A program made the position numbers. Of a stretch of DNA of 19,109 nt, positions 9,001 to 18,000 are shown in pieces (position 1 is the stretch's first letter; the number at the start of each line of letters is the position of its first letter). This DNA comes from Candidatus Methylomirabilota bacterium (GTDB taxonomy: Bacteria; Methylomirabilota; Methylomirabilia; Rokubacteriales; CSP1-6): contig JBKPAK010000220.1 in assembly GCA_046726415.1 (NCBI GenBank), positions 1 to 19,109 on the forward strand. Reading direction: 5' to 3'.

Positions 9001-12000
9001 ACCGACGAGCCCATGCCGATCAACGCCGCGGCCATCAGGATCGCTGGATAGGAGGACGCTCGCGACATGGCCAGCAGTCCCACCAGCGTGAACCCGATGC
9101 CGACCGTCAGCGAGTAGGGCTGAGGGCGCCGGTCGGTATAGAAGCCCACCGCGGGCTGGAGGATCGAGGCCGTGCACTGGACGGTCAGGGTGATGGCGCC
9201 GATCTGGCCGAAGCTGAGACCATACGACGCTTTCAGGATGGGATAGAGCGCGGGCACCAGCGACTGCATCAGGTCGTTGAGCAGGTGACAGAAGCTCAGC
9301 GACAAGATGATGGAGAAGGTGGTGACCTGGGCGACCGTGCGATGGTGTACGGCGGCGTCCGGCTGAGAGACTCCTGTGGTGGCCACCGCGCGGTCGCTCA
9401 CCGAGCCAGGATACCAGTCCTCATCTCGGGTGGCTGGGCGCGCGTGATCCGGGCACCACCCTCGCTCAACGGTCCGGCGATCGCAGGATCTCCGTCTGAG
9501 GCGTCAGCGCCAGGAGCGCTGGGCCTCAAGCCGTCTCTGTTCGAGCGCGTCGGTAGACCCGTATACCAGTCTCGCTAGCTAGCCGCGAGCTTGCGCCGAT
9601 ACTGCGCCGGAGGGAGGCCAAACTCGCGCTTGAAAGCGCGGTTGAATGCGGCTTCCGATTCGTAGCCGACATCGAAGGCCACATGGAGAATGGTCTTCGG
9701 GGGTGGTCTGCAGCAGTCTCGCCGCGAGCTGCAGGCGCCAGCGCGCGAGAGAGGTGAGCGGCGGTTCTCCGACGACTGCACGAACCGTTCGGCGATGACG
9801 GAACGCGAGGCGCCCACCTTGGTCGCCAGCTCGGCCACGGTCCAGGGATGGCTGGGCTGCTGATGGAGCATGGTCAGGACACTGCACCGACTCCGTGACA
9901 TCGGCCTCACGCGCGGGAGCATCGAGCGCGCCGTCCGGTTGGGACGGGACGTCGAGAGCGTCAGGTCGGGCCCGGCGAACGCCGGGCGAGCTGCCGATCG
10001 GTTATGGCCGCTCGATGGGTTTGGTGAACTCCCTCAGAAGCCAACCCGTGGTGGCTGCTCCCTGAGAGGAATCAGGCGCCCTGACCTCGACCCACTTGCC
10101 CCTGACGCCGAGCTGGACAACAACTTCGTTCGGATGGATCGCGCGAATTGGAGGCGACTGGCCATGGGGCCGGTGCCGCAGCGTCGTCGGTTTGACGGTG
10201 ACAACGGGGACAGGCTCGCCGTGGGCCGCCTGGCCGGCTTGTTCGGCCAGAGGGCTGGGCCCGAGTTGGCGGAGCCTGGCGTTGCGCGTGTCGGCAACCA
10301 CGAACAATGCCCCGCGGGTCACGGTGACGGCTTGGGGCTGGTTGAGCTCGGTCTGGTCGGCGTAGCGGCCGTCCCCGTTGAAGCCACCCTGGGGCGTGCC
10401 GTTGGCGACGAGGCCGCCCAGGTCGACCACGTGGCCGGAGGCGGGCACATAGGCCCGGACGAGGTCATTGGTGGTGTCGGTAAAGACCACGTTGCCATTG
10501 AGGCCAATGGACAGGCCCCTGGGCTGGTTGACCTGGACGGATGTGCCGGGGAGCAGCAGTCCCGTGTTGGGGTCGGTGTTGCCGTTGTAGCCGCTCGCCC
10601 CGGTCCCGACGACGATCGTCGCCTGTCCTGTGGTGAGGTCGATCTGGACGAGGTAGTCGGGGTCATTCGAGGTGGCGTAGAGGTTACCGGCGATGTCGCC
10701 GACCACTGCCCAGAGGAGGCCAAGGCCCCCGGCGCCGCGCTGGCAGCACTCGGTGGTGATGGTGCCGTCGGGGAGCACGCCACGGATGCCCCGGCGACCG
10801 TCGGCGATCCAGAGGTGGCCGCTCGGGTCGACCCACACGCCGTAGGGACCGCTGAGGGCGGCGGCGGTGGCCGGCCCGCCGTCCCCGCAGTCCCCGGGCG
10901 TTGCTCCACGCGGTGGGCGCACGAGACGCTGGCCGGGGAGTAGCGGACGAGGGTGCCGCGGAGGCTGGGGGAGGAGTTCCGGCGCCGGGACACTCCGCCG
11001 GGGATCAACCCGAACGGCGGCGGTAGCGCTGCAGCTCGCGCCGGTACCGGCGACGGTGGTGATGCGGCCCGAGGGATCGATTCGACGGACGCGGTGGAGG
11101 ACCGGGTCGGCCAGGTACAGCGACCCGTCGAGGCCGACGGCTAGGCCTGTAGGTGCTCCGAGCAGAGCTTGGGCGGCCGGGCCGCCATCCCCGCAGGCCT
11201 GGGTGGGGCTGGGACAGTGCTGGCCCGGGTTCCCGGCAATCACCTGCGGGGAGCCGTCGCCCACCACCAGCCGGAGCGTTCCGTCGTCGAGAGCGACGTA
11301 GTAGCCGCGTCCCGTGAGCGTGGTGGCCCAGGTGGGCGGGGTGGCCGGCACCACGGCCAGGGGTGAGCCGATGGAGGTGGCGTCGAAGAGGGTCGAGGTG
11401 GGGGTGGGGCAGGCCCCCAGGCCCGCGGCTGAGCAGGGAGCGGGGATGAGCGGCGCTTCGGCCGGGTCCGGCAGGAGATGGTTATCACAGCCGAAGGGGG
11501 GGATCGGGTCTTTGCCGTCCGGGCAGACGGTCACGTCATTCAGCGACACTCCCGTCAGGTCGGTCGTGGCGAAGGGGACGGGCCCGAATGCCTCCCCGGA
11601 GCCGAGGGCCAGCGGCCAGGCCCATCGGGGCTGCGAGCCCGGGACGTTGGCGCAGGAGCCATTCGAGAGATCCCCGCAGTAGAGCCAGGCACCAAGCAGG
11701 TTGACGCCCGGGAGGGTGGCGGACGAGAACACGGCCCCGAGCAGGTAGGCATCGGAGAAGCTGGCTCCGTCAAGGGTCGATCCGGTGAAGTTGCAGCCGA
11801 TGCACTGAGCTCTGTCGAACTTGGCCCCGGTCAGGTCGGCCCCGGCCAGATCGAAGCCTCCCTGATTGGCGTCGCCGGCGAGCACGGCATCGACGAAGTC
11901 GGCGGCCTGCAGGTTTCTGGCGCTGTCGAAGGCCCGGCCGTCGCCGTAGATGTGGGCGCCATTGAACACGGCGTTGGGGGCCTTCACCGAGTTGAAGTCG

Positions 12001-15000: not shown

Positions 15001-18000
15001 GATGTCGTCGGCCCCGACGAACGAATCGAACAACAGGAACGGGCGGCGGGTATAGCCCTGTGTCGTCGCGTCACCGAGGGTGATCGTGGCGCCCTTCTCA
15101 GCGATGGGGACGCCCCGCAGCCAATACTTATCGTCCTGCTTCCAGACGATGCCGGCCACACCCAGCCCGGTGGCGATGGCGACGCCGGTCACCTCCTGGA
15201 CGCCGCTGTTGGCGATCGTGCCGGTGTCGGTGACGGAGTCGGACCAGGTGTAGCCGCCGGCCGTGGGACTGTAGGTCGTGGTGTCAGCCCGCCGGAACAC
15301 GGTGGAAGCGGTGATGGGGGCCGGCAACTCGGTGATTGCGAAGGCCACGCTCGAGGGCGGGTTGGCCGGATCGTTGTTGGCCAGCTGGGTTGAGACACCG
15401 GTGCCGACCTGGTTGCCGTTGGCGTCCAAGACCACGATCGACCAGGTGATCGTCCGGCCGCCGAAGGGGGCGGTCAGGTGCAGCACGATAGGGTCGGAGT
15501 CGATGTGGCCGCCGGCATTGAGGGGGCCGGTTCTCGGGGTCAGCGCCACGGCCCCATCGATCTTGGCTTCGATCCGCCACGAGCGGGCCGTCACCGGCCA
15601 CGTCGCCGCGTTGTGGGCAAGATCCCGCGACACCGTCACCGTCGCCGCGTACTGCAACGACACCTCGTTCTCGATCACCCACGGCGACGTCACCGTCTCC
15701 CCGATCGCCTCCGCCAACGTCGCCGCATCACCCACCGCCGCAGCCACGGCCAGGACCTGACCGATCAACGGGATCGCCTCGACGATCTTGGAGCCCGCCT
15801 GTCCCGCAAGGATGGCGGCGGCGATTGGCGTCCAGATCGGGTTGCCGAAGGCTTCGAAGATGGCCTTCGGGATGATCGTCCCGAAGTTGACGAGGATGCT
15901 CCAGATGTTGGCTGTGCTGCCGCCGTTGTTGTTGATGTCCTCGGCGGTGGCTGCACCGGCCGCCACCAACACGGCGACGCTCTCGATGACGGAGAGGATC
16001 CTCGAGCCGATCAGCGCTTTCAACGCCGCATCCAGCGCCTGGCGGTTCTGGATGGCTGTCCGGATACCCGCCCAGGTGCTGGCGACGTCCATGTCGCAGA
16101 AGAGGGCGAAGGCGGTGACGCCGATGGTCAGGACGCCGGTCATCAGCGAGGCGAGGAGGACCTCGTCCTGGGGGGCGATGGCGCCGCTGGGGTAGGCGTC
16201 GGCGGGGAAGTATTGGCGCCAGCCACCGTCGACGGCGTTGCTGCCGAGCCCGCAGTACAGGATCCGGGCGCTGGCCGCCTCGGACGGGAAGTTCAAGGTG
16301 ACGTCGATGGTGTTGGTGTCCCAGATCGGGATGCCGAGGATGGTCCAGATCTGGGGGAGCAGGCCGAGGGAGTGGGCGTGGCGGGTGTTGGGGAACGTCG
16401 CGTTGGGGTCGAGCGACAAGTTGGTGCCGTCGGCTTTGAGGTATTGGACGTACACCGACACCCAGCGGACGTAGTTGTTGTACAGCTTGAGGGGGAGCTG
16501 CCCGCCGTTGAGGCCCCCGTTGACGAAGGTCTTGGTGCCATAGAACAGCCCGGGGTGCTTGACCTGCACGCTGAGCGTCGCTTGCGGTCCGCCCGGCGGG
16601 ACGTAGACGGTGGGGGTGGGAACGACACCTTCGGGCTGATGCCAGGTGGCAGTGTCGCTGGTGTCGTGCAGCTGGTCGAGGGGCTGATCGATGACCTTGC
16701 CGAGGCTGCCGGTGTCACGCACCCCGTGAATGCCCGCCACGAAGGCGTTGCGGGCGGTCTCGGTGAACGTCGTGTCGGTCGTGTTCAACTTGACGGTCGT
16801 CAAGGCGACGGTCTGCGAACCGACGGTGATCTGGCTCGGGTTGCCGGCGGCGTCGACCGCCGGCACCACCGTGGCGTAGTCCTGCCCCGCCTGCTGCATC
16901 TGGCCGATGTAGCTGCCGAGCGCGCTGACCTCAGGCGTCTGGCTCAGCAGCGACTTGGTGGCCGCCACCGCGGTAGGCGCGATGGTCGCCACGTTGGGGT
17001 GCAGCATGGTCAGAGCAATCGCCGTCTGATAGGGGTCCCCGATCGTCTCCAGCTGCACCACGTGCTCCGGGGAGCTGATTTGGGAGGGCAGGAGGCCCAA
17101 CGCCCTCAGGCGCGCAGGCGAGCCCAGCACGCTTCCGAGCGAGCCGGTGAAGCGATGCGCCGCCTGGGCCAGGATCCGCGTGGCCTTGGGCGGGACGCGC
17201 CACAGTTGCGACACCAAGACTTCGTTCTGCCCCCTGCGCCCGTACACCGAGACCACCATGCCCCGGTCCACCGAGAAGGGGACAGCCGAGACGTAGTGGG
17301 TGAGAGCGGACAGGTTCATGACGCCCCACAGGCCGCCTTCGGCCTTGAGCGCTGCTCGTGACACCTCGGTGTGTGGGACCAGTGGGAACCTGGCCCCGTT
17401 GGCGACCAGCACCAGATCCGAGACGCCCGTGGCTGTTGCGAGGGCGAAGTGGAGGGCGGAGGAGCTGCGCACGCGCGTCGGTGCGGCAACGGCCGGACTC
17501 GACTGCAGCTGCATAGCCATGGCCGCGGCTGAGCCCAGGCCGGCCTTGAGCATCCAGCGGCGGCTCACCGGCGTGGCCCCGAGCTCTCTCAGCAGTGATC
17601 GGCTCTCGCTGTCCAGGTGCGTGTGCTCGTCGCTCATCAGTCTTTCTCCTGGCGAAGCCTCATGCAGGGCCGGTGATGAGAGAAGTCGGCTGGTGCCTTG
17701 TTATCTCGTAGGGTCGACGACCGGCGCTTGCTCCGCTCTCCATGCCCGAAGGTGAGGTTAGATATGTCTTCTGGATCTTCTGTGCGTTCCCCTTCGGGAG
17801 CGCCGGAGACCGGTCGAGATGAGCGGGTGCCGTGCCACCCCCGCGATTCTGCGTAACTCCTCGATTCGCCGCTCGTTGCATGGTCCCGGCTGTGCAGAAG
17901 GTTGCACACGGTGAGCAAGCCGCCTGCGACCCGGGCGGGCGTTCCCGGAACGTCGCAGACTGTGTTACCGATGCGTTCGCTGGAGTGGGGTGACGGTGGC

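What a model noticed while it worked through the whole genome (the two positions that open the first line are those of the whole stretch)
10002..17637. Conserved two-gene secreted system: Tat-exported 1130-aa protein of new family plus pentapeptide/NHL partner
An unannotated 1130-aa protein with a twin-arginine signal, three conserved hydrophobic helices in a helical bundle between beta domains and a C-terminal NHL propeller (C220:14242-17637) is directly followed by a 1400-aa exported propeller/pentapeptide-repeat/NHL protein. The pair occurs three times in this genome (C220, C326, C16/C90 junction) and in soil Actinomycetota, Chloroflexota, Gammaproteobacteria and Rokubacteria. It is an undescribed two-component secreted system; the hydrophobic bundle suggests membrane insertion.
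Evidence so far: No Pfam match for the first protein, pentapeptide and NHL for the second. 176 homologues at E<=1e-10, all without Pfam, invariant RR. In 35 of 51 loci with room downstream the partner follows on the same strand within 2.6 kb. AlphaFold model pLDDT 85.5, pTM 0.83; only the propeller matches solved structures (57). Hydrophobic segments at residues 493, 547, 618. Copies in this genome: calls 36, 38, 150.
(Added by a program. Inside this text positions count along the whole contig: contig position 1 is position 1 of the stretch shown here. "Call 12" and the like, gene names such as g00115 and contig names such as C1 are that model's own, and its searches are not shown. The text may have been shortened before it was handed on; [...] marks where a part breaks off. 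The agent that wrote the report below was given it as the finding of a first reader that could run no searches.)

Follow-up and report, generated by a model that had tools for sequence, protein, structure and literature searches.

The report
Hydrophobic-insert protein with pentapeptide partner
Two large, tightly linked genes encode an unstudied protein with a hidden membrane-like helical core and a rod-shaped partner carrying interchangeable binding domains; the pair recurs in many unrelated bacteria, including insect pathogens, and most likely forms a two-part device that attaches to and inserts into membranes.

Summary
Confirmed, and wider than reported. Gene A (14242-17637, 1131 aa, Tat motif) and gene B (10002-14219, 1405 aa) lie 22 nt apart; the genome holds three such loci, two with a broken A. 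A's family reaches 628 representatives at E<=1e-10 in three export forms: Tat, Tat/Sec lipoprotein, and signal-less (Xenorhabdus, Photorhabdus, Pectobacterium, Paenibacillus). The twin arginine is therefore not invariant. A long pentapeptide-repeat B sits beside A in 31 of 36 close and 15 of 18 distant loci with full flanks, up- or downstream, and its export signal tends to match A's (31 of 45). B's constant part is the beta-helix plus a cysteine cap; NHL and other propellers are optional. A is a chain of beta-sandwiches and an NHL propeller carrying a 165-residue helical insert with two conserved hydrophobic segments (70 of 84, against 0 of 38 control Tat-motif proteins). No fold match was found for the insert or the N-terminal region. 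Best reading (0.42): a two-component alpha-helical membrane-inserting system. Binding, pore formation and target are untested. Not found in nine paper searches.

The parts
14242..17637 (-). Gene A, 1131 aa, founding member here of an unannotated family
17482..17637 (-). A residues 1-52: twin-arginine signal (RR at 26-27), probable AxA cleavage, no lipobox
   Evidence: sequence; TAT_signal E 0.0097, below cutoff; RR in 106 of 119 close homologues
16603..17469 (-). A residues 57-345: beta domain plus alpha/beta region with conserved His 89, 114, 213 (a fourth, position 147, is Arg here); no fold assigned
   Evidence: models; conservation 122, 134, 122 and 90 of 138; no PDB or Pfam match
16183..16602 (-). 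A residues 346-485: Ig/FN3-like beta-sandwich that carries the helical insert and is closed by the strand at 654-670; N387 and R391 nearly invariant
   Evidence: VIA Z about 5.7-5.8, rmsd 2.8-3.3, 71-96 aligned, model range 309-606
15682..16182 (-). A residues 486-652: helical insert of 7-8 helices; conserved hydrophobic segments near 495-515 and 618-645 (AIPxxG motif), variable ones between
15313..15681 (-). A residues 653-775: transthyretin-like beta-sandwich resembling secretin pilotins and type V pilin domains
   Evidence: 5wec Z 8.6, rmsd 3.0, 101 aligned; 2yjl Z 8.2, rmsd 2.6, 95 aligned
14275..15312 (-). A residues 776-1121: NHL-type beta-propeller, the most conserved domain
   Evidence: 1q7f Z 22.7, rmsd 4.0, 261 aligned; profile E 2e-28 to NHL domains
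14220..14241 (-). 22-nt gap between A stop and B start (operon-like spacing)
   Evidence: gap <=100 nt in 44 of 51 measurable pairs
10002..14219 (-). Gene B, 1405 aa, exported multidomain pentapeptide-repeat protein
14130..14219 (-). B residues 1-30: Sec-type signal peptide (ALA|QP), no twin arginine
   Evidence: sequence; Tat motif in 1 of 37 signal-bearing B proteins
13275..14129 (-). B residues 31-315: YWTD/LDL-receptor class B-like propeller (optional module)
   Evidence: PF00058 E 8e-13; absent from many loci
11670..12824 (-). B residues 466-850: pentapeptide-repeat beta-helix, constant core of B
   Evidence: PF00805 E 6e-33
11385..11669 (-). B residues 851-945: cysteine/proline-rich cap (CPDG ... 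PxxC), conserved across clades and often the C-terminus of distant B proteins
10245..11384 (-). B residues 946-1325: teneurin-type NHL propeller (close clade), with a 41-aa Arg/Pro-rich insertion at 10896-11018
   Evidence: PF25021 E 3e-24
10029..10181 (-). B residues 1347-1397: probable bacterial SH3 (SH3b) domain, present in the three copies of this genome
   Evidence: PF08239 E 0.0037, below cutoff; no match in the 55 genome loci

Best explanation
A and B form a two-component, membrane-inserting system that works like a binary alpha-helical pore former or translocon. A folds as a soluble protein with its hydrophobic helices packed in an insert that is hinged on a beta-sandwich (inferred; N387, R391, T500 and E647 may latch it). 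It leaves the cell folded, mostly by Tat, which would keep those helices from stalling in the producer's own membrane; the signal-less branch would be released by lysis or another route. B goes by Sec to the same compartment. Its constant beta-helix and cysteine cap would dock on A, and its exchangeable propellers, lectin-like and SH3b modules would choose the surface to which the complex binds. On contact the insert would open and enter a bilayer, probably as an oligomer. Shown: gene pair, tight linkage, matching export signals, modular B, hydrophobic insert, patchy spread, duplication and decay. Inferred: A-B binding, insertion, oligomerisation, toxicity, and the target (a foreign cell rather than close kin, since no immunity gene recurs).
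For: Insert has two or more 19-residue segments of Kyte-Doolittle >=1.6 in 70 of 84 A proteins and in 18 of 30 signal-less ones, against 0 of 38 other Tat-motif proteins of this genome. It sits as a loop-out of a beta-sandwich in both models. Tat motif in 31 of 37 signal-bearing A but 1 of 37 B. Pairing in 31 of 36 and 15 of 18 fully flanked loci, in either order; export class agrees in 31 of 45 pairs against 17.1 in shuffles (kin not independent). B swaps flanking domains (LDLRb, FG-GAP, Laminin G, NHL, SH3b). A and B occur in the same 1 of 60 relatives. The close clade mixes Rokubacteria, Methylococcaceae, Actinomycetota and Chloroflexota, and copies are duplicated and decayed in this genome, as is usual for conflict genes (general knowledge). 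Full-length 1336-1482-aa members occur in many Xenorhabdus, Photorhabdus and Pectobacterium strains.
Against: No structural or profile match to any known pore-forming or translocation domain was obtained for the insert. Hydropathy is moderate (median 1.95 and 1.74) and a propeller strand reaches 1.6 in 29 of 84, so buried helices of a soluble bundle could give the signal; the control set is small and from one genome. The insert is not more acidic than the next domain (D+E 9.7% against 10.1%). In 10 of 45 pairs both proteins look like lipoproteins and 28 of 120 close A proteins end in basic tails, which points to retention on the producer's own surface. A few A lipoproteins lack a Tat motif (L070, L071, L085), which weakens the folded-export argument. 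No catalytic domain, immunity gene or third gene recurs. Intact A genes occur without a detectable B in two genomes, and B stays intact beside broken A genes here.
Confidence: 0.42

Rival explanations
1. A and B are a non-toxic surface adhesin or scaffold complex. B is the modular adhesin; A is its base, and the hydrophobic insert anchors A in the producer's own outer layer or forms an oligomer core.
For: Both partners are lipoproteins in 10 of 45 pairs; basic C-terminal tails and an SH3b-like domain suggest retention on the cell; A's beta domains resemble pilotin, type V pilin and FN3/Ig domains; no immunity gene; many copies per genome in Solirubrobacterales.
Against: A large branch has no export signal on A (115 of 117) or, in 5 of 8 testable pairs, on B, which is hard to fit with a displayed adhesin; a lipid-anchored protein would not need a second hydrophobic anchor; the pilin-like matches are generic (Z 6-8.6).
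Confidence: 0.28
2. A is an enzyme or carrier for a hydrophobic substrate. The conserved histidines of the N-terminal region bind a metal, the helical insert is a lipid-binding pocket, and B positions the enzyme.
For: H89, H114 and H213 are kept in 122, 134 and 122 of 138 sequences across all clades; Tat export is typical of cofactor proteins (general knowledge); the N-terminal region has no assigned fold.
Against: The fourth histidine is Arg in this intact copy and His in 90 of 138; no enzyme family or structure matched; no metabolic gene recurs beside the pair; I could not check whether the histidines cluster in space.
Confidence: 0.15
3. A is a dedicated exporter or tether for B: it inserts in the producer's own envelope and moves or holds B at the surface.
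For: Tight linkage and matching export class; pilotin-like domain in A; A is constant while B varies.
Against: The same A occurs in monoderm and diderm hosts and without a signal; intact A without B; intact B beside broken A.
Confidence: 0.1

Closest known systems
Binary alpha-pore-forming toxins of the ClyA type (XaxAB, YaxAB, Hbl/Nhe) (recalled)
   Same: Two linked genes; a soluble protein with hidden hydrophobic helices; found in Xenorhabdus and other insect- and soil-associated bacteria.
   Different: There both subunits are long helical bundles; here A is mostly beta with a 165-residue insert and B is a pentapeptide beta-helix. No sequence or fold match was obtained.
Diphtheria-toxin and colicin-type translocation or pore domains (recalled)
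   Same: Helical bundle with hydrophobic, Gly/Pro-capped hairpins next to beta-sandwich binding domains.
   Different: No catalytic domain or immunity gene found; the insert is nested inside a beta-sandwich; a second protein is nearly always encoded next door; no match in PDB or Pfam profile searches.
Cholesterol-dependent cytolysins / MACPF
   Same: Top Foldseek rows for A 57-775 (best E 1.7e-3); helices inserted on a beta scaffold and a long strand leading to a beta-sandwich.
   Different: About 150 columns, rmsd about 15 A, TMq 0.08; not among the 50 rows of the VIA second look. CDC helices convert to amphipathic beta-hairpins (recalled), whereas these segments are continuously hydrophobic.
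DUF2169-pentapeptide T6SS accessory proteins (TagAB, BPSS1504; PMC13584744, passages read)
   Same: Long pentapeptide-repeat proteins that assist a delivery system.
   Different: B has no DUF2169 hit, usually has a signal peptide, and no T6SS gene recurs nearby.
Secretin pilotins (PDB 2yjl, 5wec) and type V pilin domains (Mfa2, 5nfi)
   Same: Transthyretin-like sandwich at A 660-774 (Z 7.3-8.6); many A proteins are lipoproteins.
   Different: One of six domains, 6-11% identity; a common fold that shows no function.
Teneurins and bacterial teneurin-like proteins (PDB 9ifo)
   Same: Beta-sandwich followed by an NHL propeller; TEN_NHL hit in B.
   Different: No YD/RHS shell or C-terminal toxin domain detected in A or B.

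Membership tests
Tat substrates | N-terminal S/T-R-R-x-hydrophobic motif followed by an h-region | tested here: met
   SRRWMLK plus h-region; Pfam hit below cutoff; homologue P0204 passes TIGR01409; true of one part of the family only
Tat substrates | Export depends on TatABC | not testable with these tools
   needs a tat mutant
ClyA-type binary alpha-PFTs (XaxAB/YaxAB, Hbl/Nhe) | Both subunits are long all-helical bundles | tested here: not met
   B is a pentapeptide beta-helix with propellers; A is mostly beta
ClyA-type binary alpha-PFTs (XaxAB/YaxAB, Hbl/Nhe) | Hydrophobic helices hidden in a soluble monomer | tested here: met
   70 of 84 against 0 of 38 controls; burial is from models only
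ClyA-type binary alpha-PFTs (XaxAB/YaxAB, Hbl/Nhe) | Subunits bind each other and form pores | not tested
   no complex prediction was obtained; pore formation needs a bench assay
AB toxins with a diphtheria-type translocation domain | Catalytic domain in the same protein or operon | tested here: inconclusive
   none detected, but A 57-345 has no assigned fold
AB toxins with a diphtheria-type translocation domain | Fold homology of the translocation domain | tested here: inconclusive
   not listed; the insert was not modelled and searched alone
CDC/MACPF | Bent central beta-sheet with two helical clusters | tested here: inconclusive
   weak Foldseek rows (E>=1.7e-3, rmsd about 15), not among listed VIA rows
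DUF2169-pentapeptide T6SS adaptors | N-terminal DUF2169 and location in a T6SS/VgrG cluster | tested here: not met
   no DUF2169 in B or in 20 scanned B homologues; no recurring T6SS neighbour
Qnr/MfpA gyrase-protecting pentapeptide proteins | About 200-aa cytoplasmic single-domain protein above the family cutoff | tested here: not met
   1405 aa, signal peptide, scores 33-55 bits against cutoffs of 240-500
Teneurin-like proteins | YD/RHS shell after the NHL domain | tested here: not met
   no RHS/YD hit and no room after the propeller of A
Lipocone superfamily (bioRxiv 10.1101/2025.01.14.632903, passages read) | Four-helix cone with conserved catalytic polar residues | tested here: inconclusive
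   no Pfam match for 74 insert sequences; only T500, P623, G626, E647, P652 are conserved; no direct profile comparison made
Known anti-phage systems (PADLOC 2.0) | Match to a defence-protein model | tested here: not met
   0 of 5 proteins matched

The most novel reading that the evidence does not exclude
A is the first member of a new class of membrane-penetrating protein: a beta-sandwich that carries a deployable helical insert, armed by a pentapeptide beta-helix partner that supplies exchangeable aiming domains. One machine would have been re-used in three regimes: freely exported (Tat/Sec), tethered as a lipoprotein pair for contact-dependent action, and signal-less for release by lysis, as in nematode-borne insect pathogens.
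Probability: 0.25. Interest if true: 0.85.

Novelty: new variant of a known kind. Interest (0 to 1): 0.64.

Why it matters
A family of hundreds of 1000-1500-residue proteins, annotated only as hypothetical or NHL-repeat proteins, has kept one partner across many phyla, both gene orders and three export routes, so the partnership is old and functional. If it inserts into membranes it is a pore or translocon architecture unlike the families tested here, and it would give exported pentapeptide-repeat proteins, whose roles are mostly unknown, a defined job. Members in culturable, genetically tractable genera (Methylotetracoccus, Paenibacillus, Pseudomonas, Xenorhabdus, Photorhabdus) make it testable at once.

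Tried and rejected
Fold searches of the whole A model returned only propellers. The model of residues 57-775 gave no Foldseek match at E<=0.001 in PDB, one diffuse viral row (E 2.3e-4, rmsd 31 A) and only generic beta-sandwich rows in VIA; the insert and the N-terminal region were not modelled alone, so the absence of a match is not proof of a new fold. The CDC rows were set aside as a probable long-strand/beta-sandwich likeness. Profiles of the insert (A7) and of residues 57-345 (A8) found only a designed helical repeat (E 9e-4) and noise. ESM Atlas gave NHL look-alikes under 0.8 and no hit for 350-775. PHROGs, PADLOC, phage records and viral contigs: nothing. A suspected A-B fusion in L113 is a shadow frame of the upstream gene; fused forms longer than the searched lengths were not looked for. 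An acidic bias of the insert was tested and is not specific. No conserved third gene among 5851 neighbouring ORFs of 70 aa or more. Sequencing runs: no RNA holder listed; four DNA runs held only short pieces, so expression and co-transcription are open. No complex prediction was obtained, so A-B binding is open. Papers: nine searches gave no description of the pair; I saw listings and abstract openings, and passages only of PMC4758244 (no mention of pentapeptide), PMC13584744, bioRxiv 10.1101/2025.01.14.632903 and PMC12688089. Their supplements were not read (the bioRxiv ones are closed) and could list these genes; subscription papers and patents were not searched. Earlier findings of the scan: four look-ups empty, one with loose matches.

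
Full report
Observation. Gene A (14242-17637, minus strand, 1131 aa) and gene B (10002-14219, 1405 aa) are intact and 22 nt apart. A has a twin-arginine signal and otherwise no Pfam or NCBIfam family. B has a Sec-type signal, an LDL-receptor class B-like propeller, a linker domain, a pentapeptide beta-helix, a cysteine-rich cap, an NHL propeller and a probable SH3b domain. The genome (7.6 Mb, 67.5% G+C) carries further copies: on C326 an intact A (66%), a decayed A 5' end, a frameshifted A and an intact B (75%); on C16 an A with residues 48-600 deleted and two more frame breaks, then B, which continues on C90 (83%) through a 138-nt overlap. 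The same-genus genome G002 has the coordinates of locus L059, a Candidatus Rokubacteria record, so the host is most likely a Rokubacterium.

The family is much wider than reported. A word-indexed search gave 193 proteins among 8000 scored candidates; the 120 listed are 52-95% identical and have no precomputed Pfam domain. An exhaustive search of 1.84 billion representatives gave 914 hits at E<=0.001 and 628 at E<=1e-10, many of them fragments. A plasmid homologue from Xenorhabdus bovienii CS03 led to 147 more among 7996 candidates, with named members in Xenorhabdus, Photorhabdus, Pectobacterium, Paenibacillus, Pseudomonas, Mucilaginibacter, Pseudovibrio, Actinocorallia and Nocardia. That branch aligns with the window's branch over 977 columns (probability 100, E 9e-77). 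By a simple rule, 106 of 119 full-length close homologues have RR and 13 have neither RR nor a signal; of 47 long representatives 37 have RR and 12 look like lipoproteins; 115 of 117 in the Xenorhabdus-seeded set have no signal. In a quick tree of 49 rows the signal-less forms group together (SH-aLRT 93), a second loss lies inside the close clade, and that clade mixes Rokubacteria, Methylococcaceae, Actinomycetota and Chloroflexota, which suggests horizontal spread (midpoint root, no test of one clade). The system is rare within groups: 1 of 60 relatives has A and the same one has B; 0 of 399 other genomes of the Methylotetracoccus class (one more not scored) and 1 of 300 of an actinobacterial class had A, with only two candidates scored per genome.

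The partner. A profile of the B core, built from 17 B proteins of which 16 come from these loci, found B in 38 of 54 close genome loci (one of 55 had no A hit at my threshold) and 50 of 79 distant metagenome loci; with at least 4 kb on both sides of A the counts are 31 of 36 and 15 of 18. Loci overlap and several share a genome. Pfam independently called pentapeptide repeats in 20 of 25 hand-picked neighbours; the other five were A itself, three other Xenorhabdus cluster genes and a Kelch protein. In this genome the profile hits 5 places, 3 beside A. Of 62 pairs with a full-length A, 55 remained after removing 7 duplicates: B is downstream in 35, upstream in 19 and divergent in 1, and the gap to the nearest candidate start is <=100 nt in 44 of 51. 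In the 45 pairs with a readable B start, the export class (signal, lipoprotein, none) agreed in 31, against 17.1 in shuffles; the rule is crude and kin are not independent. A Tat motif was present in 31 of 37 signal-bearing A and 1 of 37 B. The constant part of B is the beta-helix plus a CPDG...PxxC cap; flanks vary (LDLRb, FG-GAP, Laminin G, NHL, SH3b). Against obligate pairing: B was not found with my query in 4 of 5 genomes whose A lacked a neighbouring B, among them a Chloroflexia genome with two intact A genes and an Acidimicrobiaceae genome (these are metagenome bins). No third gene recurs.

Anatomy of A. Two models (full length, pLDDT 83.4, pTM 0.83; residues 57-775, pLDDT 87.2, pTM 0.81) show a beta domain (57-149), an alpha/beta region (150-345), a beta-sandwich (346-485, closed by strand 654-670) from which a helical insert (486-652) loops out, a transthyretin-like sandwich (653-775) and an NHL propeller (776-1121). 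The propeller matches NHL domains (1q7f Z 22.7, rmsd 4.0, 261 aligned). The two sandwiches match generic folds (pilotins Z 8.2-8.6; Ig/FN3 Z about 5.7). The insert has the lowest confidence and its last hairpin is modelled differently in the two runs. It is the least conserved region in the close clade (44% against 49-66%) but keeps its hydrophobic character: mean hydropathy +0.74 against -0.02 to -0.17 elsewhere, and two or more segments of 19 residues at >=1.6 in 70 of 84 sequences, against 0 of 38 other Tat-motif proteins of this genome. The segments near 500 and 625 are the conserved ones (79 and 60 of 84); the middle ones vary (17 of 82, 21 of 84). In the signal-less branch 18 of 30 have two such segments and the strongest is the Gly-rich middle one, which aligns with residues 547-565 here. 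Near-invariant residues across 138 sequences are N387, R391, T500, P623, G626, E647, P652 and histidines 89, 114 and 213.

Mechanism. The simplest account of a soluble exported protein with a hinged hydrophobic bundle, a tightly linked partner that goes to the same compartment and swaps binding domains, a patchy cross-phylum spread, and repeated duplication and decay is a two-component membrane-inserting system (0.42). A would be the inserting subunit, exported folded so that its helices do not stall in the producer's membrane; B would be the docking and aiming subunit. Every step from binding onward is inferred. The lack of a recurring immunity gene suggests a target unlike the producer, or no toxicity. 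The main rival is a surface adhesin or scaffold held on the producer (0.28), favoured by the lipoprotein pairs, basic tails (28 of 120) and SH3b, and disfavoured by the signal-less branch. An enzyme or lipid carrier using the histidines (0.15) and a dedicated exporter for B (0.10) are less likely.

Comparison and novelty. It works, on the best reading, like binary alpha-pore-forming toxins or diphtheria/colicin-type insertion domains (names recalled, not from a call), but it fails or cannot be shown to meet their defining features. B is not a Qnr/MfpA protein or a DUF2169 adaptor (PMC13584744, passages), and neither protein has a teneurin shell. Nine paper searches found no description; the paper on the CS03 megaplasmid does not mention pentapeptide proteins in its main text (PMC4758244, passages), and supplements were not seen. 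Public records call A hypothetical or NHL repeat-containing. Verdict: a real, old and apparently undescribed two-gene system; a new variant of a known kind if the best reading holds, possibly a new class of membrane-penetrating protein. Interest 0.64.

Noticed in passing
window 10896-11018 (B residues 1068-1108): A 41-aa Arg/Pro-rich insertion with low third-position G+C (0.66 against 0.86 for the gene) replaces a short loop between two cysteines of B's NHL domain; similar inserts are in the C90 and C326 copies but not in L016 or L034. It looks like out-of-frame DNA kept in frame.
   Followed up: partly
G000 C326:12297-12505: A decayed 5' end of gene A (upstream element plus signal-peptide codons, 71% identical to window 17483-17686) lies between the two A copies; the upstream stretch with TATGAT resembles that before the C16 copy.
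   Followed up: partly
L068:1781-17612 (X. bovienii CS03 megaplasmid): The signal-less A and B are separated by two glycine-rich, collagen-like genes (419 and 217 aa), preceded by a 525-aa unknown gene and followed by a type I polyketide synthase; P0358 ends in a similar glycine-rich stretch.
   Followed up: partly
P0309 residues 1231-1301; L115:727-2964; L068:10201-12669: A small domain of about 75 aa at the C-terminus of many signal-less A proteins has weak matches inside the B proteins of the same branch (11-19 bits), as if both partners gained the same module.
   Followed up: partly
P0011-P0013, P0015, P0017, P0020, P0050, P0057: Close homologues that keep the start of the Tat signal up to RR but have lost the hydrophobic region: an independent loss of export.
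   Followed up: partly
L016, L018, L019, L040 and others: In Solirubrobacterales and related Actinomycetota many A and B proteins end in Lys/Arg/His-rich tails, 14 of 120 A proteins with a terminal FTG- or GLG-like motif: a possible surface-retention signal.
   Followed up: no
19 loci, e.g. L058:16202-18997; G000 C16:2109-2462: Genes that look like large ATP-binding (AAA/LuxR-type) regulators, by eye, or pieces of them, lie near A in 19 loci; may only reflect their abundance in these genomes.
   Followed up: no
window 1936-2319, 9575-9922, 4421-6088: By eye: a transposase-like fragment, a frameshifted AraC-like regulator just downstream of B, and a cNMP-binding thioredoxin-reductase-like gene whose C-terminus runs out of frame; the region looks like a decaying accessory island.
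   Followed up: no
L092:8608-10290: A 561-aa A homologue that lacks profile positions 232-805, including the whole insert, but keeps signal, N-terminal domain and propeller in one frame, with no B within 8 kb.
   Followed up: no
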